A DNA stretch of 39,494 nucleotides from the IMG/VR virus record IMGVR_UViG_2711768073_000020, positions 1 to 39,494 of that record; one strand, given 5' to 3'. A model generated the notes under the pieces. The model did no database searches, was not told where the DNA came from, and saw only the letters and a list, made by a program, of their open reading frames with translations. This document shows, piece by piece, positions 3,517-22,808 of the stretch. This DNA comes from a virus. Its lineage: Duplodnaviria; Heunggongvirae; Uroviricota; Caudoviricetes. The translations under genes were made by a program, and so were the position numbers. Position 1 is the first letter of the stretch; each line of letters opens with the position of its first letter.

Positions 3517-4043
3517 TTGCGTAACTCCGATAACTCGTTAAAGCGTTCCATAAACATCCCGTAGGCATGGCCCGGTGCCAGTGGAATCACGTTGAACATC
3601 TCTGTTGCCGGGATACCTTCCAGTACAGGCCAGAAAGAGCCATCATCAAGCCCGAGATCGCGGCGTTCGGTTGCCAGCATGATGAGATCGGCATATTTCA
3701 CGGGCGTACTCATAACTGGGGGTAATCCGTATTTCTCACGGATTACGGAGTCTATTTTTTCTTCCATTTGTTTATAGTCAGGAAGAAGGCGTTTCAGTGG
3801 TGCGGGAATGTCCTGGCAATACGCTTCTGTTGCATCATGCATTAACGCTTCAAAAGCAAATTCCTGCGGCACCAGCTGGCTGCAAAGAACCGCATGTTGG
3901 GCGACGCTGTAGAAGTGCGAAAGATGACCGGCAAAGCGACAGATATTTGAAAGGGAAACCGCGATATCGTTAATATCGATGTCGTCTTTATTTATCCTGT
4001 CATAATAAAAATGCTTCCCGGAAAAAGTTTTAATAAATGACAT
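3507..4043 (-). CDS. HD-domain phosphohydrolase / 5'-deoxynucleotidase-like protein (YfdR-like), 178 aa
   Basis: H...HD motif (FAGHLSHFYSVAQHAV ... ALMHDATEAY); likely true start is the ATG at 4043 preceded by GGAG (the ORF-track start at 4070 is a GTG). Confidence 0.65.
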   Translation of the reverse strand: MSFIKTFSGKHFYYDRINKDDIDINDIAVSLSNICRFAGHLSHFYSVAQHAVLCSQLVPQEFAFEALMHDATEAYCQDIPAPLKRLLPDYKQMEEKIDSVIREKYGLPPVMSTPVKYADLIMLATERRDLGLDDGSFWPVLEGIPATEMFNVIPLAPGHAYGMFMERFNELSELRKCA

Positions 4044-4170
4044 TTTGTTCTCCACGTATATGCGCTGCACCGCGCTGAATTCTGGTAAAAAGAATCCCTC
4101 ACCATCCGGCGATTATTGAGTAAATTACGTTTCCATAAATGCCCCCGCAGGGGCATTTGCAGTAATGAAA

Positions 4171-4995
4171 TCAGGCGGTGAAAGTACCAATAAAGGTTTC
4201 TACTTTGCTGTCCTTGAATTTCTCAACAAGCAGATCACGAAATTCGTTAGCCATTTCTTCCTGCACCGCCTCCAGCTGAATAATGCGCAGAACCAGTACC
4301 GGACGATCGCCAGTGATAATGCTGAGGCGTAATTTAAACGGACGTTCTTTCAGACCTTCAAACGGAATGCATTTAAATTCAAATGCCACTGGCATAATGT
4401 CTTTGGTCTTCGCTTCGACAGACTCCATCAGGGAGCGTTTGCCGCTGAAGTCATTATCTTCAAAATCAGCGGTCTGGTTTGCTTCAATCGTGATTTTACG
4501 GACCGCCGCAGCCGCTTTTGTTGCCTGAATGGTGTCACCATTAGCATCAAAGCCCACAAGGTAGTCGGCCCAGTCTTCAATCCATTCTGCCAGTGATTTC
4601 TGGGAGTTACGCTCGCCATTAACAGACAACAGAGCAGAGAACGGTGCTGTCTTTTTCAGTTTGAGAGTGGCGGTGTTATCTGCGTGACCTGGTTCATCAA
4701 TAGTACCCAGGTTAAGCACACTGACGGCACGCATATTATCAGCATCGATAAAGCAGCGGGTGCCTTCATCTGCAAGATCTTTAGAATAACGGGTAAAGTC
4801 ATCGATGCTGGCAGTGGAAAGCGCACCACGGAAACGGAAGCGATTTAAATTAAATTTTTCCAGATCATGAATGCGGAAATTCTCAGGCAATGCCACAGCA
4901 TCGGCACCAATCTTACTGATAATTTCATTAACACCCTGAGCAGAAATAAGGGCATGGATTTGATTAATTGCGGTTGCGTCTAAGTTCTGAGACAT
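4171..4995 (-). CDS. YfdQ-like (DUF2303-type) prophage protein, 274 aa
   Basis: ORF with GAGGA RBS 7 nt upstream of the ATG; size and position match the CPS-53-type yfdQ; function unknown. Confidence 0.6.
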
Positions 4996-15952: not shown

Positions 15953-16328
15953 GCTGGTTATTGTTGCCTTCTTTGTTACCGTCATTGGTTCCTTCATCTG
16001 GTCTGCCGGGCATTACTACAGCAAATATCTGCACGAAAAGGAGCGTGCTGATGAGGCTATACGAAATGCTGAATCAGCAACTGCCATTACCCGTAACGTT
16101 CTGCAATCACTGCAAATCATCAATACAGTTATAGAGGCTAACCAGCATGCAAAACAGCAGATTGCACTGGAGTCACAGAAAACCCAGGAAGATATCAAAG
16201 TGGCTGTTGCGGATGATGATTGTGCTTCACGTCCTGTGCCTGCTGCCGCTGCTGACCGGTTGCGGAAGTACGCGGACAGTTTACGTGAACACTCCGGCGG
16301 TACCACTGCCAGCCAGCTTGACTTCTGA
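15936..16328 (+). CDS. i-spanin (Rz-like), 130 aa
   Basis: N-terminal TM anchor (LVIVAFFVTVIGSFIW) followed by charged helical region; overlaps the endolysin end; an o-spanin ORF starts inside it in another frame. Confidence 0.6.
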   Translation: MKLRYKLVIVAFFVTVIGSFIWSAGHYYSKYLHEKERADEAIRNAESATAITRNVLQSLQIINTVIEANQHAKQQIALESQKTQEDIKVAVADDDCASRPVPAAAADRLRKYADSLREHSGGTTASQLDF

Positions 16329-16461
16329 TACACCTGTACCGTTTATACCCAACCCACTGACGTATGGTGCAAGTCTTGATTTGAATGTAAGTTTGTTATC
16401 CGCGTTGGCTCAATGTAATAGGGATAAGTCTGATATCAGAATCATTGATAATCAAAATTGA
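16213..16461 (+). CDS. o-spanin (Rz1-like) lipoprotein, ~82 aa
   Basis: Signal peptide plus lipobox MMIVLHVLCLLPLLTGC, Pro-rich mature part; starts inside Rz in a different frame and extends 133 nt beyond its stop. Confidence 0.6.
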   Translation: MMIVLHVLCLLPLLTGCGSTRTVYVNTPAVPLPASLTSDTPVPFIPNPLTYGASLDLNVSLLSALAQCNRDKSDIRIIDNQN

Positions 16462-16664
16462 TGTATATTTTTATCGTCATGTAGATAACGAACAAGGTAT
16501 TCCTCTGATACGTTTCGTTGAATACAGGTCATGGGTAGGCATTGCAATATCGCTTCGAAATTATCTGTGATAATGCTCTTAATTTTGAATGTATGTATTT
16601 GGGAAAAGAGATAAAGTAATAGTCTAATTAATGGAGATATCCACAAAACACAAAAGGGACTATT

Positions 16665-17171
16665 ATGCGACCAGATCAATTTTTCTATCCAGATACTTTT
16701 ACCTTTAATTCATCCACCTATTATGGTCAACGTGACTCATCTAAAGGTCGATTGTATATTCCTATTGAAAGTGACTTATGTCCATTTAATATCGGCGATA
16801 TCATTGTGCAAAAAATGGTCGACAGGGAAAGACTATTTGAAGTGCTTGATTACGAGGTGCAAATTAGTCTCGAGGCTGGTTGCCCTGGCTACTCACATTT
16901 GGCGGTATTGATAGTGAATGCATTGGATGTAAAAGAGAAGCCGAAGCAGATTACGACCCATTTGACGTTTAACGGTGCTATTAATGCTGGTGGTGATTTT
17001 CAAGCCGGTAATGACAATTCGATCACAAAGAATATAACCATTCAACAACTACATGATGCTATAGAGCATTGCAATGATCCAGAGGTTAAAAGCCTTTGGC
17101 AAAAGCTATTGGAAAATCCGACGTTTGCTTCAATTGCTTCAATATTGGCAAAAAGTGCTTTAGGACAGTAA
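16665..17171 (+). CDS. Hypothetical cargo protein, 168 aa (AT-rich, between lysis and packaging genes)
   Basis: AAGGGA RBS 6 nt upstream; preceded by a ~200-bp AT-rich spacer and followed by its own terminator; no signal peptide or motif recognised. Confidence 0.5.
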   Translation: MRPDQFFYPDTFTFNSSTYYGQRDSSKGRLYIPIESDLCPFNIGDIIVQKMVDRERLFEVLDYEVQISLEAGCPGYSHLAVLIVNALDVKEKPKQITTHLTFNGAINAGGDFQAGNDNSITKNITIQQLHDAIEHCNDPEVKSLWQKLLENPTFASIASILAKSALGQ

Positions 17172-17180
17172 TTCATCAAG

Positions 17181-17202
17181 CCCCATTCAATATGGGGTTT
17201 TT
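17181..17202 (+). terminator. Intrinsic terminator after the 168-aa gene
   Basis: CCCCAT-tcaat-ATGGGG followed by TTTTT. Confidence 0.65.
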
Positions 17203-17228
17203 ATGCTTATTACAAAGAGTTTTCTTCA

Positions 17229-17579
17229 ATGCCACCACGAACTCCAAAAGCCTGCCGTGTTCGCGGGTGCCGCCGTACCACCACTGACCCGTCAGGTTAT
17301 TGCGAAAGCCACAAAAGCGAAGGCTGGAAGCAATACAAGCCAGGACAATCCCGTCATCAGCGCGGCTACGGTTCGAAGTGGGACGTTATCCGCGCGCGTG
17401 TGCTGAAACGTGACAAAGGTTTATGTCAGTTATGTCTGCGCGCTGGTGTGGTGCGTGAGGCGAAAACTGTTGACCACATCATCCCTAAAGCGCATGGCGG
17501 CACTGATGCCGACTGTAATCTGCAGAGTCTGTGCTGGCCGTGTCATAAGGCGAAGACGGCCCGTGAACGGTTGAAGTGA
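17229..17579 (+). CDS. HNH endonuclease (terminase-associated), copy 1, 116 aa
   Basis: Cys-rich zinc motifs (CRVRGC...CESH) and HNH core (DHIIPKAHGGTDADCNLQSLCWPCH); 5' part only ~88% identical to copy 2 at the DNA level. Confidence 0.8.
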   Translation: MPPRTPKACRVRGCRRTTTDPSGYCESHKSEGWKQYKPGQSRHQRGYGSKWDVIRARVLKRDKGLCQLCLRAGVVREAKTVDHIIPKAHGGTDADCNLQSLCWPCHKAKTARERLK

Positions 17580-17704
17580 TAATAATTCTCAACTGCCTGA
17601 GGGGAGGGGCGGGTCAAATCCCTGCGGCCTGACGTCTTCCGGACTGCCCGCCCCATCGTTTTTTTATACCCGCGAAAAATGAAATTTAACCAGGAGTGCC
17701 GCAT
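17580..17704. other. Candidate cos / packaging region between HNH and TerS (copy 1)
   Basis: GC-rich dyad GGGGCGGG...CCCGCCCC followed by TTTTTTTATAC; in HK97-type phages cos lies between the HNH gene and the small terminase gene. Confidence 0.3.
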
Positions 17705-18190
17705 ATGGCTGGAACGGCGGGGCGTTCCGGGCGTCGCCCCAAGCCAACGGCGCGCAAGGCGCTGGCCGGAAACCCCGGCAAGCGAGCCCTGAATAAAGAT
17801 GAACCTGTTTTTACGCCCATCAAAGGTGTTGAGCCACCGGAATGGTTCGCTGAAGAAGATCTCCCTCTCGCTACGATCATGTGGCAACTGACAACTAAAG
17901 AACTCTGCGGTCAGGGCCTGCTGTGCGTGACTGACCTCGCGGTGCTTGAGCGGTGGTGCGTGGCCTATGAGTTCTGGCGACGTGCCGTGAAAAATATTGC
18001 CAGCCAGGGCAACACCATTACCGGTGCAATGGGCGGTATGGTCAAAAACCCGGAGCTGACCGCCAAGAAAGAACAGGAGTCCGAGATGAGCAGCACGGGG
18101 GCAATGCTCGGACTCGACCCCAGCAGCCGCCAGCGTCTGATTGGCCTGGCGGGGAAGAAGAAAGCCACTAACCCGTTTCTGACAATCTGA
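17705..18190 (+). CDS. Terminase small subunit (P27 family), copy 1, 161 aa
   Basis: [14 protein letters not shown]... with AGGAG RBS 8 nt upstream of ATG 17705; protein identical to copy 2. Confidence 0.75.
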
Positions 18191-18203
18191 AAATCATCGA
18201 ATC

Positions 18204-18388
18204 ATGAGCCGGAAATCTTACCCCAACGTAAATGCTGCCAATCAGTATGCCCGGGATGTCGTGCGCGGAAAGATTGTGGCCTGCCAGTTTGTGATTCAGG
18301 CCTGCCAGCGCCATCTTGATGACCTGATGGCGGAAAAAAGTAAGTCGTTTCGTTACCGCTTCGACAAGGATCTGGCTGAACGGGCCGC
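18204..18388 (+). pseudogene. Terminase large subunit, 5' fragment (first ~62 codons) truncated at an IS3 junction
   Basis: Matches the first ~185 nt of the intact TerL gene at 21075 and diverges after 18388, where IS3-derived sequence begins. Confidence 0.8.
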
Positions 18389-19038
18389 ATTCCACGCAGA
18401 TTATGCCGCTTCAGTTGCGCCTGATAATCTGCTGAACAGTACTGGCCTCCACGGTCCGTGTGAACGATAACGTTCCGGGGCCTCTTACGCCGCCACAGCG
18501 CCATCTGCAGGGCATCGCAGGCCAGTTGCGCCGTCATGCGTGGCGACATTGACCAGCCAATAACGGCACGTGACCACAGGTCAATGACCACTGCCAGATA
18601 CAGCCAGCCTTCATCTGTACGTAAGTACGTGATGTCTCCTGCCCACTTCTGGTTCGGGCCACTGGCGTAAAAATCCTGCTCCAACAGATTTTCTGACACA
18701 GGCAGGCCGTGTGCGCGGTAGCTGACCGGGCTGAACTTCCGGGAGGCCTTTGCCCTCAGTCCCTGACGGCGCAGGCTTGCCGCCACGGTTTTTACGTTAA
18801 AGGGGTAACCCTGAGCACGCAGTTCATCCGTCAGGCGTGGGGCACCGTAACGCTGTTTTGACCGGGTAAAAGCCGCGAGGACAACGCTGTCGCAGTGTTG
18901 GCGGAACTGCTGACGCGTGCTTATCCTTGTCCGCCGCTGACACCACGTATACCAGCCGCTGCGGGCCACCCGGAGCACGCGGCACATTGCTTTGATGCTG
19001 AACTCAGCCTGATGTTTTTCAATAAAGACATACTTCAT
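18389..19038 (-). pseudogene. insF: IS3 transposase InsF (OrfB), 3'-truncated
   Basis: [36 protein letters not shown]...QLKRHNLRG matches IS3 InsF, then reads into non-IS DNA. Confidence 0.8.
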
Positions 19039-19334
19039 TTCAGGCGCTTCGCGAAGTATGTCGCGGCCTTTTGGAGGATAGCCAGCTCTTCATCCCGTTC
19101 TGCCAGCTGGCGTTTGAGACGTGCAATCTCGGTAGACATCTCCAGTTCACGTTCAGAAGACGTCTGCTGATTTTGCTGTTTACTGCGCCAGTTGTAGAGC
19201 TGTGATTCATACAGGCTGAGTTCACGGGCTGCGGCAGTAACACCGATGCGTTCAGCAAGCTTCAGGGCTTCACTGCGAAATTCAGGCGAATGCTGTTTAC
19301 GGGGTTTTTTACTGGTTGATACTGTTTTTGTCAT
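19035..19334 (-). CDS. insE: IS3 InsE (OrfA), 99 aa
   Basis: [54 protein letters not shown]... from ATG 19334. Confidence 0.85.
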
Positions 19335-19396
19335 GTGAGTCACCTCTGACTGAGAGTTTACTCACTTAGCCGCGTGTCCACTATTGCTGGGTAAGA

Positions 19397-19570
19397 TCAC
19401 TCATCACGTATTTGTGTTTCATGTTTGCGATTGTAGAAGTAGCCATTCAGTTCATTTAACTTTTTATGCATCCTATCGTGACTAATTGCTTCGATCAGTA
19501 AATCCTGAATCATACTTTTCTCTAGGTAATCCGAACGGTTGTAAGTGACAGTATTGTGCTGGCATGTCAT
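19397..19570 (-). pseudogene. Small ORF (57 codons) whose stop codon is supplied by the IS3 terminus; probable IS3-truncated gene
   Basis: Minus-strand ORF MTCQHNTVTYNRSDYLEKSMIQDLLIEAISHDRMHKKLNELNGYFYNRKHETQIRDE ends with the TGA of the IS3 end TGATCTTACC; no clear RBS. Confidence 0.3.
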
Positions 19571-19613
19571 TAATATGTAAAGGTATTGTGAATGCCAGAA
19601 AGATAACGAAGTA

Positions 19614-19949
19614 TCATCGATAGAAAAACTTTACAGCCCACTCGTAAACAGCTTTGTAAATCGGTTCATGGTAAATACTATCGATACTATTCAGATGTGC
19701 GATCATCGCCTCCACAGTTGTAGTGGTTGTTTCTAATATTTCGATTATTGCAGGGCGGTCATCATCTTCATCGAAGTATTCGAACAGCAGTACAGGTTTA
19801 CCATGCAATTCAGCATCTGAGACTCTAAGGTTACAACTACCGCTCAACTCAAAGTGAATTTTGTAATTACCTTCTACAGAATGGCCTACGGGGAAAAAGT
19901 ATAGGGTGTCATCTTTGTTCAAAAGCCATGCCCATTCATAACTATTCAT
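19614..19949 (-). CDS. Hypothetical acidic protein, ~111 aa (AT-rich island between the IS3 fragment and packaging module 2)
   Basis: AGGAG 7 nt upstream of ATG 19949; poly-Thr/acidic stretch (DEDDDRPAIIEILETTTTT). Confidence 0.45.
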   Translation of the reverse strand: MNSYEWAWLLNKDDTLYFFPVGHSVEGNYKIHFELSGSCNLRVSDAELHGKPVLLFEYFDEDDDRPAIIEILETTTTTVEAMIAHLNSIDSIYHEPIYKAVYEWAVKFFYR

Positions 19950-20099
19950 TTGTGAACTCCTGTTCATTGAGTTTCAACAACTATCAACTACATCCAGCGA
20001 AGCATAAAAGATCGTTTATGGCAAAACCGGAATGGAGTGCGATTCGATTCTGAGAAGGGTGCCACGTATCGTACGCGAACCATCCAAGAGGATTATGCA

Positions 20100-20450
20100 A
20101 TGCCCCCACGAACCCCAAAAGCCTGCCGCGTTCGCGGCTGCCGCCATACCACCACTGACTCGTCAGGCTATTGCGAAAGCCACAAAAGCGAAGGCTGGAA
20201 GCAATACAAGCCAGGCCAGTCCCGACACCAGCGCGGTTATGGTTCGAAATGGGATGTTATCCGTGAACGTGTGCTCAAGCGTGACAAAGGCCTGTGCCAG
20301 TTGTGCCTGCGTGCTGGTGTGGTGCGCGAGGCGAAAACCGTTGACCACATCATCCCTAAAGCGCATGGCGGCACTGATGCCGACTGTAATCTGCAGAGTC
20401 TGTGCTGGCCGTGTCATAAGGCGAAGACGGCCCGTGAACGGTTGAAGTGA
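20100..20450 (+). CDS. HNH endonuclease (terminase-associated), copy 2, 116 aa
   Basis: Same HNH motifs as copy 1; AGAGGA RBS 7 nt upstream of ATG 20100. Confidence 0.8.
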   Translation: MPPRTPKACRVRGCRHTTTDSSGYCESHKSEGWKQYKPGQSRHQRGYGSKWDVIRERVLKRDKGLCQLCLRAGVVREAKTVDHIIPKAHGGTDADCNLQSLCWPCHKAKTARERLK

Positions 20451-20575
20451 TAATAATTCTCAACTGTCTGAGGGGAGGGGCGGGTCAAATCTCTGCGGCC
20501 TGACGTCTTCAGGACTGCCCGCCCCATCGTTTTTTTATACCCGCGAAAAATGAAATTTAACCAGGAGTGCCGCAT
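20451..20575. other. Candidate cos / packaging region between HNH and TerS (copy 2)
   Basis: Same GC-rich dyad and T-tract as copy 1 with 3 substitutions. Confidence 0.3.
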
Positions 20576-21061
20576 ATGGCTGGAACGGCGGGGCGTTCCG
20601 GGCGTCGCCCCAAGCCAACGGCGCGCAAGGCGCTGGCCGGAAACCCCGGCAAGCGAGCCCTGAATAAAGATGAACCTGTTTTTACGCCCATCAAAGGTGT
20701 TGAGCCACCGGAATGGTTCGCTGAAGAAGATCTCCCTCTCGCTACGATCATGTGGCAACTGACAACTAAAGAACTCTGCGGTCAGGGCCTGCTGTGCGTG
20801 ACTGACCTCGCGGTGCTTGAGCGGTGGTGCGTGGCCTATGAGTTCTGGCGACGTGCCGTGAAAAATATTGCCAGCCAGGGCAACACCATTACCGGTGCAA
20901 TGGGCGGTATGGTCAAAAACCCGGAGCTGACCGCCAAGAAAGAACAGGAGTCCGAGATGAGCAGCACGGGGGCAATGCTCGGACTCGACCCCAGCAGCCG
21001 CCAGCGTCTGATTGGCCTGGCGGGGAAGAAGAAAGCCACTAACCCGTTTCTGACAATCTGA
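20576..21061 (+). CDS. Terminase small subunit (P27 family), copy 2, 161 aa
   Basis: Identical protein to copy 1; immediately followed by the intact large subunit. Confidence 0.8.
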
Positions 21062-21074
21062 AAATCATCGAATC

Positions 21075-22808
21075 ATGAGCCGGAAATCTTACCCCAACGT
21101 AAATGCTGCCAATCAGTATGCCCGTGATGTCGTGCGCGGAAAGATTGTGGCCTGCCAGTTTGTGATTCAGGCCTGCCAGCGCCATCTTGATGACCTGATG
21201 GCGGAAAAAAGTAAGTCGTTTCGTTACCGCTTCGACAAGGATCTGGCTGAACGGGCCGCCAAATTTATTCAGCTGTTGCCGCACACCAAGGGTGAGTGGG
21301 CATTCAAGAGGATGCCCATCACGCTGGAGCCGTGGCAGCTCTTTGTGATCTGCTGCGCGTTTGGCTGGGTCAATAAAGGCTCCCGGCTGCGCCGCTTCCG
21401 TGAGGTGTATACCGAAATCCCCCGTAAGAACGGCAAATCGGCAATCTCTGCCGGTGTCGCCCTGTATTGTTTTGCCTGTGATAACGAGTTCGGCGCGGAA
21501 GTGTATTCCGGTGCCACGACGGAGAAACAGGCATGGGAAGTCTTTCGTCCGGCAAGACTGATGTGTAAACGCACACCCATGCTGACGGAAGCGTTCGGGA
21601 TTGAGGTTAACGCCTCAAACATGAACCGTCCGGAGGATGGCGCGCGGTTTGAACCGCTGATCGGCAACCCCGGTGATGGTTCATCACCCCACTGTGCCGT
21701 GGTGGATGAATATCACGAGCACGCCACCGATGCGCTTTATACCACAATGCTTACCGGGATGGGGGCGCGACGTCAGCCACTGATGTGGGCCATCACCACC
21801 GCCGGGTACAACATTGAGGGGCCGTGCTACGACAAGCGGCGGGAAGTCATCGAGATGCTCAACGGCTCGGTGCCTAACGATGAACTGTTCGGGATCATCT
21901 ATACCGTTGATGAAGGTGACGACTGGACCGACCCGCAGGTGCTGGAAAAAGCCAATCCAAATATTGGCGTATCGGTTTATCGCGAATTTTTGTTAAGTCA
22001 GCAGCAGCGTGCGAAAAATAACGCCCGTCTGGCAAACGTCTTTAAAACAAAACACCTCAATATCTGGGTGTCGGCACGTTCGGCGTATTTCAACCTGGTG
22101 AGCTGGCAGAGCTGCGAGGATAAATCACTGACCCTTGAGCAGTTCGAGGGGCAGCCGTGCATTCTGGCCTTTGACCTGGCGCGTAAGCTGGATATGAACA
22201 GCATGGCGCGACTTTATACCCGCGAGATTGACGGTAAAACGCATTACTACAGTGTGGTCCCGCGCTTCTGGGTACCGTATGACACGGTGTACAGCGTCGA
22301 GAAAAATGAAGATAGACGGACAGCCGAACGCTTTCAGAAATGGGTGGAAATGGGCGTCCTGACCGTTACCGATGGTGCAGAGGTGGATTATCGCTACATC
22401 CTCGAAGAGGCCAAAGCGGCGAACAAAATCAGCCCGGTCAGTGAGTCACCCATCGACCCCTTCGGGGCGACCGGGCTGTCACATGACCTTGCTGATGAAG
22501 ATCTGAATCCCGTCACTATCGTCCAGAACTTCGCCAATATGTCCGATCCGATGAAAGAGCTGGAAGCAGCGATTGAATCGGGACGCTTTCATCATGACGG
22601 CAATCCCATCATGACCTGGTGTATCGGCAATGTGGTCGGCAAAAACATGCCAGGTAACGATGATTTAGTGAAGCCCGTCAAGGAGCAGGCGGAAAACAAA
22701 ATCGATGGTGCGGTTGCACTGATTATGACGATCGGTCGGGCAATGCTCAAAGAACCTGACGATTTCCTCTCATCTCTTGATCCGGACGATGATCTCTTAA
22801 TTCTATGA
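21075..22808 (+). CDS. Terminase large subunit, 577 aa
   Basis: Size and position after TerS; N-terminal ATPase region with Walker A-like EIPRKNGKS and C-terminal nuclease region. Confidence 0.9.

What the first reader, a model, noticed from the sequence alone, without database searches (positions are those of the whole stretch)
19397..19949. AT-rich minus-strand gene pair beside the IS3 fragment, one ORF ending in the IS3 terminus
A ~111-aa acidic protein (19614..19949, AGGAG RBS, poly-Thr stretch) is followed on the same strand by a 57-codon ORF whose stop codon is the TGA of the IS3 terminal repeat, suggesting the second gene was cut by the IS3 insertion/deletion. The island is AT-rich and sits just upstream of packaging module 2, a typical cargo position. 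It could be the remnant of a two-gene accessory module (toxin-antitoxin, immunity or defence).
Basis: partly seen in the sequence, partly recalled or inferred. Interest (0 to 1): 0.45.

Follow-up and report, generated by a model that had tools for sequence, protein, structure and literature searches.

The report
IS3-broken nuclease gene beside prophage cargo gene
This AT-rich patch of an E. coli-type prophage holds two separate accessory ("moron") genes: an intact small acidic protein of unknown function, and the first 38 codons of a previously unannotated restriction-enzyme-like nuclease that an IS3 insertion destroyed. It is a fairly ordinary piece of prophage cargo decay, not a toxin-antitoxin pair.

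Summary
A 111-aa acidic protein gene lies at 19614-19949 (-), with AGGAG 7 nt upstream. It is followed by a 57-codon ORF whose stop codon is the terminal TGA of IS3.

The short ORF is the 5' end of a 189-aa gene (208 aa from an upstream ATG). That gene is intact in 73 of 5426 complete E. coli genomes. Three genomes carry a full IS3 at the same site, where a 3-bp CTC duplication was read in one. In the window a later rearrangement removed 248 bp of the IS3 and the rest of the gene. It joined the remnant to a second, 96.8%-identical, truncated HNH-terS-terL module.

The 189-aa protein belongs to a rare family with no annotation. I assign it to the PD-(D/E)xK nucleases on three grounds:
- K30, E32, D64, E85 and K87 are the only invariant residues across 38 distant members.
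- Distant members give sub-threshold PDDEXK_4, HSDR_N and Shedu hits.

The two genes are not an obligate pair. Outside one E. coli prophage lineage each occurs without the other, at the same antisense site between lysis and packaging genes. A toxin-antitoxin reading is therefore disfavoured. Independent cargo genes, possibly defensive, is the best reading. Interest is low to moderate.

The parts
19614..19949 (-). Intact 111-aa acidic protein gene (RefSeq WP_001505012.1 / WP_001089763.1, phrog_14397, function unknown). It is a stand-alone cargo gene.
   Evidence: ORF and translation. RefSeq CDS at the same coordinates. PHROG hit at 6.6e-77 with no Pfam, PADLOC or NCBIfam hit. 38 homologue clusters, all in Enterobacterales. 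It occurs without the 189-aa gene in L014-L022 and L024-L026.
19957..19961 (-). Shine-Dalgarno AGGAG, 7 nt upstream of the 111-aa start codon.
   Evidence: Read from the sequence.
19400..19513 (-). Remnant of the 189-aa PD-(D/E)xK-like nuclease gene: codons 1-38 only. It keeps K30 and E32 and has lost D64, E85 and K87.
   Evidence: tblastn 95% over residues 1-38 at 19513-19400. Family start at this Met. Invariant residues.
19397..19570 (-). It comprises an upstream in-frame ATG, 19 extra codons, the 38 genuine codons, and a stop codon supplied by IS3.
   Evidence: The same ATG gives a 208-aa ORF in L001.
18390..19399 (-). IS3 fragment, 1010 of 1258 bp. The terminal repeat ends at 19399. orfA lies at 19035-19343. 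orfB is cut after about 209 codons.
   Evidence: Blast to the full IS3 of L002 (4763-6020), matching L002 5011-6020. CTC target duplication in L002. RefSeq annotation 'IS3-like element IS3 family transposase'.
17215..18388 (+). First, truncated packaging module: HNH 17229-17579, terS 17696-18190, and the first 62 codons of terL. It is fused to the interior of IS3.
   Evidence: 96.85% identity (37 mismatches, no gaps) to 20086-21259. Junction sequence. No complete E. coli genome carries the whole arrangement.
19400..20085 (.). AT-rich island (39.5% G+C), the cargo site between the lysis and packaging genes.
19553..19581 (-). Promoter-like match TTTACA-17-CACAAT between the two genes. This is weak evidence only.
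   Evidence: 1 match found against 2.1 expected by chance. The same site exists in L001. The homology of the GF60 stand-alone copy extends 126 bp upstream of the start codon and includes this stretch.
20100..22808 (+). Intact second packaging module (HNH, P27-family terS, terL), divergent from the 111-aa gene.

Best explanation
The island is a cargo ('moron') hotspot of an HK97-like lambdoid prophage. It lies between the lysis cassette and the HNH-terS-terL packaging genes. It holds two independently mobile, AT-rich, single-gene cassettes transcribed against the late operon.

Shown:
1. The cassette next to the packaging genes encodes an intact 111-aa acidic cytoplasmic protein of unknown function.
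2. The second cassette encoded a 189-aa protein. An IS3 inserted after codon 38 and created a CTC duplication.
3. The lineage of the window then lost the far 248 bp of the IS3 and the 3' two-thirds of the gene. Whatever DNA lay further to the left was replaced. The break is joined to codon 62 of terL in a second, 3%-divergent packaging module.
4. The remnant cannot encode a functional protein.

Inferred:
5. The 189-aa protein is a metal-dependent PD-(D/E)xK nuclease, with E32 on the first helix, D64 at strand 2 and E85-x-K87 on strand 3.
6. It tolerates life without any fixed partner gene and without a methyltransferase. It therefore probably does not cut normal host DNA.
7. Its most likely role is a lysogen-expressed nuclease that attacks incoming foreign DNA, such as modified or structurally distinct phage DNA. 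This prophage has lost that function.
8. The 111-aa protein most likely acts on its own as another lysogen-expressed accessory factor. It is not an antidote to the nuclease.
For: Intact gene and IS3 site:
-. 80 of 5426 genomes carry the island and 73 carry the whole pair.
- H1-H3 match the window exactly across the IS3 junction. L002 (H1) has the full 1258-bp IS3 and the CTC duplication.

Rearrangement:
- The modules are 96.85% identical, the junction lies at 18388/18390, and no complete genome shows the whole arrangement.

Nuclease assignment:
- The AF2 model has pLDDT 85 and pTM 0.85, with helix-strand-strand-strand-helix-strand order.
- In 38 members down to about 20% identity the only invariant residues are K30, E32, D64, E85 and K87.
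- Single distant members hit PDDEXK_4 (19.3 bits against a 22.3 cut-off, covering the motif region), HSDR_N, Shedu SduA and REase_II.

Independence of the two genes:
- Presence/absence table and gene maps.

Cargo character:
- 39.5% G+C against 51.3% for the window.
- Patchy presence: 1.5% of E. coli genomes, 4 of 185,579 species representatives, and none of 50,697 phage records.
- Same antisense site next to P27-type, Terminase_2, Sf6-type, lambda GpA-type and DUF2280 terminases.
- This fits the published description of morons as additions with deviant GC content (PMC3594210).

Real genes under purifying selection.
Against: - The E. coli protein hits no curated nuclease HMM, and profile searches of PDB sequences find nothing.
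- No defence model in PADLOC 2023 matches the E. coli protein.
- Promoter and terminator scans are at or below chance, so independent transcription is not shown.
- In E. coli the two genes are almost always together (73 of 80 genomes). A functional interaction within that lineage is therefore not excluded.
- The 111-aa model is too poor to interpret (pLDDT 55).
- The defensive role is pure inference.
Confidence: 0.7

Rival explanations
1. The 111-aa acidic protein and the 189-aa protein form one two-gene module, such as a toxin-antitoxin pair or a nuclease plus inhibitor. The acidic protein would neutralise the nuclease. IS3 removed the toxin and left an orphan antidote.
For: The genes are adjacent, co-oriented and about 100 bp apart. 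They are found together in 73 of 80 E. coli genomes that carry the island. The upstream partner is small and acidic, with pI 4.6. The downstream partner looks like a nuclease.
Against: - The 189-aa gene is intact without any 111-aa relative in E. coli GF60, Enterobacter, Yersinia (2 loci), Klebsiella, Providencia, Pectobacterium, Citrobacter and Proteus (2 loci).
- The 111-aa gene occurs without a nuclease relative in 13 loci.
- An unrelated 75-aa gene precedes either one.
- No TA family in Pfam or NCBIfam matches.
Confidence: 0.1
2. The 189-aa gene is a free-standing homing-endonuclease-like selfish gene. It spreads by cutting the empty site next to terminase genes, and it is not a host-benefit gene.
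For: It always lands at the same intergenic site next to terS, in phages with unrelated terminases and lysis genes. Several genera share a roughly 60-nt upstream block that includes the start, or a relic of the start, of the divergent terS gene. This suggests co-transfer of flanks. PD-(D/E)xK homing endonucleases exist (own knowledge).
Against: Its orientation is antisense to the lytic late operon, so it would be poorly placed for expression during co-infection. The family is absent from 50,697 sequenced phage genomes. Distant relatives sit in non-phage variable regions. Ordinary recombination at a mosaic boundary explains the shared flank equally well.
Confidence: 0.08
3. [not shown]
Against: The five invariant residues among 38 sequences at about 20% identity fall exactly where the PD-(D/E)xK signature is expected, in the right secondary-structure elements. 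All four weak family hits are to PD-(D/E)xK families.
Confidence: 0.12

Closest known systems
Phage morons, e.g. HK97 gene 15 (PMC3594210) and lambda bor in the same post-lysis position (placement of bor from own knowledge)
   Same: Extra genes between conserved phage modules, with G+C content unlike their neighbours. Their presence is patchy among related prophages. Here they are oriented against the late operon, as bor is.
   Different: No promoter or terminator could be demonstrated. The functions are unknown. Neither protein resembles Bor, Lom, gp15 or any other characterised moron product.
PD-(D/E)xK nucleases of the type II restriction-enzyme kind (R.SwaI 5tgq, BglI, EcoRV, SfiI) and Pfam PDDEXK_4
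   Different: No sequence-level membership in any curated family. No adjacent methyltransferase in any of more than 20 contexts. It is smaller (189 aa) than most restriction enzymes. Its activity is untested.
Single-gene nuclease defences such as Shedu (SduA, DUF4263) or type IV restriction enzymes (Mrr-like)
   Same: A stand-alone PD-(D/E)xK-type gene on a mobile element with no modification partner. One distant family member hits the SduA model weakly (E = 1e-5).
   Different: The E. coli protein does not hit SduA or any PADLOC model. It has no N-terminal sensor domain. No defence phenotype is known.
IS3 insertional inactivation followed by adjacent rearrangement
   Same: Canonical IS3 end (TGATCTTACC) and a 3-bp target duplication in the sister genome. 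The gene is split at the insertion point.
   Different: In the window the IS itself is truncated internally. The second event was therefore not a standard IS-end-mediated deletion but an illegitimate or unexplained join.

Membership tests
PD-(D/E)xK nuclease superfamily (189-aa protein) | Alpha-beta-beta-beta-alpha-beta core fold shared with restriction endonucleases | tested here: met
   [not shown]
PD-(D/E)xK nuclease superfamily (189-aa protein) | Conserved acidic residue on strand 2 and (D/E)xK on strand 3, often with a Glu on the first helix | tested here: met
   K30, E32, D64, E85 and K87 are the only invariant columns in 38 sequences at a mean column identity of 21%. Their positions fit the predicted helix and strands.
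PD-(D/E)xK nuclease superfamily (189-aa protein) | Significant match to a curated family model | tested here: inconclusive
   There is no Pfam, NCBIfam or PADLOC hit for the E. coli protein. Distant members hit PDDEXK_4 at 19.3 bits (cut-off 22.3), HSDR_N at E = 1.4e-4, SduA at 1e-5 and REase_II at 4e-3.
PD-(D/E)xK nuclease superfamily (189-aa protein) | Metal-dependent phosphodiester cleavage | not testable with these tools
   This needs biochemistry.
Type II toxin-antitoxin or nuclease-inhibitor pair | The two partners co-occur across homologues | tested here: not met
   0 of 12 non-E. coli 189-aa loci and 0 of 13 111-aa loci contain the other gene. E. coli GF60 has the 189-aa gene alone.
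Type II toxin-antitoxin or nuclease-inhibitor pair | Match to a known toxin or antitoxin family | tested here: not met
   Nothing reached significance in Pfam, NCBIfam or PADLOC for either protein. The few Pfam and NCBIfam matches were all far below the curated cut-offs.
Restriction-modification system | Cognate methyltransferase encoded next to the nuclease | tested here: not met
   No methyltransferase is adjacent in any context. A phage DNA methyltransferase lies 1.4 kb away, beyond the lysis genes, in L001 and L002 only.
Known anti-phage defence systems (PADLOC-DB 2.0) | HMM match to a system component | tested here: not met
   There are no hits for either window protein. Only isolated weak hits appear for distant relatives. 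Systems described after 2023 were not tested.
Phage moron | An addition between conserved modules, variably present among related phages, with deviant G+C | tested here: met
   The definition is from PMC3594210.
Phage moron | Own promoter and terminator, with expression from the repressed prophage | tested here: inconclusive
   There is one promoter-like match at chance level and no terminator. Other genera share a conserved TGTATAAT block upstream that overlaps the divergent terS start. Expression data are not available.
IS3 insertion | IS3 terminal repeat at the junction and a 3-bp target duplication | tested here: met
   GGTAAGATCA ends at 19399. CTC is duplicated around the full copy in L002 and present once in the empty site of L001. 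In the window the second end is deleted, so the duplication cannot be seen there.

The most novel reading that the evidence does not exclude
The 189-aa family would be a previously unrecognised single-gene anti-phage nuclease that needs no methyltransferase or partner. Lambdoid prophages of Enterobacterales would carry it at a dedicated cargo hotspot between lysis and packaging genes. The 111-aa and 75-aa acidic proteins that share this hotspot would be further new single-gene exclusion or counter-defence factors. The window would then record the loss of one such defence by IS3.
Probability: 0.25. Interest if true: 0.5.

Novelty: new member of a known kind. Interest (0 to 1): 0.27.

Why it matters
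It gives a provisional identity (PD-(D/E)xK nuclease) to an unannotated prophage protein family, phrog_12494 / WP_000613842.1. It also shows that the lysis-to-terminase gap of lambdoid prophages exchanges at least three small cassettes independently. If the nuclease is defensive, it adds a compact single-gene system to the prophage defence repertoire. For genome annotation, the practical points are these:
- The 57-codon ORF is a pseudogene remnant.
- The 111-aa gene should not be called an antitoxin.
- The duplicated packaging module marks a rearranged, chimeric prophage.

Otherwise this is ordinary prophage cargo turnover and IS-mediated decay.

Tried and rejected
- Pfam, PADLOC and NCBIfam scans of both proteins gave nothing significant. 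PHROGs only placed them in unnamed families.
- blastn and tblastn against 50,697 phage genomes gave no match.
- Profile searches of PDB sequences with alignments A2 and A4 gave nothing. Alignment A3 gave only a chance-level hit to CPR-C4 at E = 0.08, and the hit region lacks conserved catalytic residues.
- Foldseek against the PDB and against viral models gave no significant match. The afdb50 library was unavailable.
- The structure of the 111-aa protein came out at pLDDT 55, too poor for a fold search.
- An Rfam scan of 16000-21000 gave no RNA family. The repeat scan of the island gave only short chance-level repeats.
- Promoter and terminator scans were at or below chance.
- A literature search for the accessions and PHROG ids found no papers. 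A search for a described defence hotspot at this locus found nothing specific.
- The exact rearrangement junction was absent from the species-representative genomes and from 5426 complete E. coli genomes. Its reality could therefore not be confirmed independently.
- I considered an R-M reading with the phage methyltransferase upstream of the holin. I rejected it because the linkage is absent in other contexts.
- I considered a fresh tandem duplication of the packaging module. I rejected it because the copies differ at 37 of 1174 positions.

Full report
**1. What is in the sequence**

- The 111-aa ORF lies at 19614-19949. AGGAG sits 7 nt before its ATG. RefSeq annotates the same coordinates in sister genomes as a hypothetical protein.
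- Its product is acidic (pI 4.62) with no hydrophobic segment. It contains a five-Thr run that homologues do not conserve.
- The 57-codon ORF lies at 19397-19570. It ends in a TGA that is the first triplet of the IS3 terminal repeat (GGTAAGATCA on the + strand at 19390-19399).
- The island 19400-20085 has 39.5% G+C against 51.3% for the window.

**2. The short ORF is a broken gene**

- The island occurs in 80 of 5426 complete E. coli genomes, and 73 carry the whole two-gene stretch.
- In UPEC_U013 (L001) the ORF continues to 208 aa. RefSeq and all 31 homologue clusters start at its 20th codon, giving 189 aa.
- The window therefore keeps only codons 1-38 (19513-19400).
- Three genomes (H1-H3) are 100% identical to the window across the junction.
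- In one of them (L002) a complete 1258-bp IS3 sits at exactly this site. It is flanked by CTC on both sides, and the empty site in L001 has a single CTC. This is a bona fide IS3 transposition shared by descent with the window.

**3. A second event**

- The window retains only 1010 bp of IS3 (18390-19399). The missing 248 bp, the 3' two-thirds of the gene and the upstream lysis genes of that lineage are gone.
- The break is joined at 18388/18390 to codon 62 of a terL gene. That terL belongs to a first HNH-terS-terL' module (17215-18388).
- The first module is 96.85% identical to the intact one at 20086-21259, with 37 mismatches.
- The two modules therefore come from different, related prophages and are not a fresh duplication.
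- No complete E. coli genome and no species-representative genome shows this junction. I could not confirm it independently.

**4. What the broken gene encoded**

- Neither protein matches Pfam, NCBIfam or PADLOC. Both fall in unnamed PHROGs.
- The family is rare: 31 clusters among 5.8 billion proteins, 48 representatives among 1.84 billion, 4 of 185,579 species representatives, and no sequenced phage.
- An AlphaFold model built on 20 homologues is confident (pLDDT 85, pTM 0.85). It has the helix-strand-strand-strand-helix-strand order of restriction-endonuclease-like proteins.
- Foldseek found nothing significant.
- The strongest argument is conservation. In 38 members down to about 20% identity, the only invariant residues are K30, E32, D64, E85 and K87. 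These are a Glu on the first long helix, an Asp at the start of strand 2 and ExK on strand 3, which is the PD-(D/E)xK signature.
- Individual distant members give sub-threshold hits only to PD-(D/E)xK families: PDDEXK_4 over the motif region, HSDR_N, Shedu SduA and REase_II.
- I conclude with about 0.75 confidence that it is a PD-(D/E)xK nuclease of a new, unannotated family. The remnant in the window lacks D64, E85 and K87 and is dead.

**5. Are the two genes a module?**

I fetched contexts for both families and tabulated presence by tblastn.

- The 189-aa gene is intact with no 111-aa relative nearby in Enterobacter, where a 75-aa acidic gene precedes it.
- The same holds in Yersinia (2 loci), Klebsiella, Providencia, Pectobacterium, Citrobacter and Proteus (2 loci).
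- It also holds in E. coli GF60, where a + strand 151-aa ORF replaces the 111-aa gene.
- The 111-aa gene occurs alone in 13 loci. In L022 it follows an 83%-identical copy of the same 75-aa gene.
- In the prophage contexts the genes sit antisense between the lysis cassette and the small terminase gene. The terminases are of P27, Terminase_2, Sf6, lambda GpA and DUF2280 types. The Pectobacterium and Pantoea loci (L009, L010, L021, L025, L026) are not in that setting.
- These are three independently assorting cassettes at one hotspot, not a toxin-antitoxin or nuclease-inhibitor pair.
- A nuclease that persists without any fixed neighbour and without a methyltransferase presumably does not attack normal host DNA.
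- Both genes are under purifying selection.

**6. Mechanism**

- Shown: cargo hotspot, independent cassettes, IS3 knockout, and a later rearrangement.
- Inferred: the 189-aa protein is a metal-dependent nuclease.
- More speculative: it is expressed from the prophage and cuts foreign DNA (modified or otherwise distinctive), so that this prophage has lost a defensive function. The 111-aa protein would act alone as another lysogen-expressed factor.
- Independent transcription is not demonstrated. Promoter and terminator scans are at chance.
- The stand-alone GF60 copy does keep 126 bp of upstream sequence.
- Other genera share a TGTATAAT-containing block upstream that overlaps the divergent terS start.

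**7. Comparison with the known**

- The arrangement fits the published notion of morons as additions with deviant G+C that benefit the lysogen (PMC3594210). From my own knowledge, it occupies the position where lambda carries bor.
- The nuclease works like a type II/IV restriction-enzyme catalytic domain. It is not a member of any curated family or known defence system, and it lacks an R-M partner.
- Distant relatives in metagenomes lie in heterogeneous variable regions. Their neighbours include YD-repeat proteins, SLOG, WYL regulators and DUF6892/DUF7738, again with no methyltransferase.

**8. Verdict**

The truncation by IS3 and the cargo site are right. The two-gene module is not.
- Novelty is modest: a new member of known kinds, namely a moron, a PD-(D/E)xK nuclease and IS3 decay.
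- Interest is about 0.27. The main residual value is an unannotated, compact nuclease family that would be cheap to test for anti-phage activity.

Noticed in passing
window 17215-18388 and 20086-21259: There are two copies of HNH-terS-terL5' at 96.85% identity. The first terL stops at codon 62 and is fused to the interior of IS3 at 18388/18390. The prophage is a chimera of two related phages. The arrangement is absent from 5426 complete E. coli genomes.
   Followed up: partly
window 16665-17171 (+), hairpin plus T-run at about 17172-17205: A different AT-rich 168-aa ORF occupies the equivalent cargo site upstream of the first packaging module. It has a terminator-like hairpin after its stop and no Pfam match.
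   Followed up: partly
window 18202-19038 (-): This 278-aa ORF is a chimera. About 209 codons of IS3 orfB read on into the antisense strand of the truncated terL.
   Followed up: partly
L004:4683-4910 and L022:3663-3890: A 75-aa acidic protein gene precedes the 189-aa homologue in Enterobacter prophages. An 83%-identical copy precedes the 111-aa homologue in another contig. It is a third independently assorting cassette at the same hotspot and has no Pfam match.
   Followed up: partly
about 35-60 nt upstream of the 189-aa homologues in L004, L008, L009, L012, L027 and L028: There is a conserved block ...CCAGTCCGGTTTyGyCATGTATAATCC... with an extended -10-like TGTATAAT. The CAT is the start codon of the divergent terS in L012 and L028, and appears to be a relic elsewhere. 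The E. coli copy is degenerate.
   Followed up: partly
L023 (E. coli GF60, NZ_CP172185.1) 1-842: The related prophage carries a Kiwa KwaB-like gene upstream of its holin. This suggests that the neighbouring variable site also holds defence cargo.
   Followed up: no
L111 (E. coli PCP06173) 3783-4945: Another full IS3 sits in the same lysis-to-HNH gap of a related, degraded prophage that carries different small ORFs. The AT-rich gap may be a recurrent IS3 target.
   Followed up: no
L031-L110 (metagenome loci of the distant clade): Distant relatives of the 189-aa family (20-30% identity) lie downstream of a 620-aa YD-repeat protein in 16 loci. Others lie near SLOG/YspA, WYL-WCX, DUF6892/DUF7738 and TerB-DnaJ-zinc-finger genes. 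This resembles variable or polymorphic-toxin-type islands more than prophages.
   Followed up: partly
111-aa protein residues 47-109: There is a weak profile hit (E = 0.08) to CPR-C4 (PDB 7ob6) over the C-terminal helices (PIYKxVxExA..F). It is probably chance, because no catalytic residues are conserved.
   Followed up: partly
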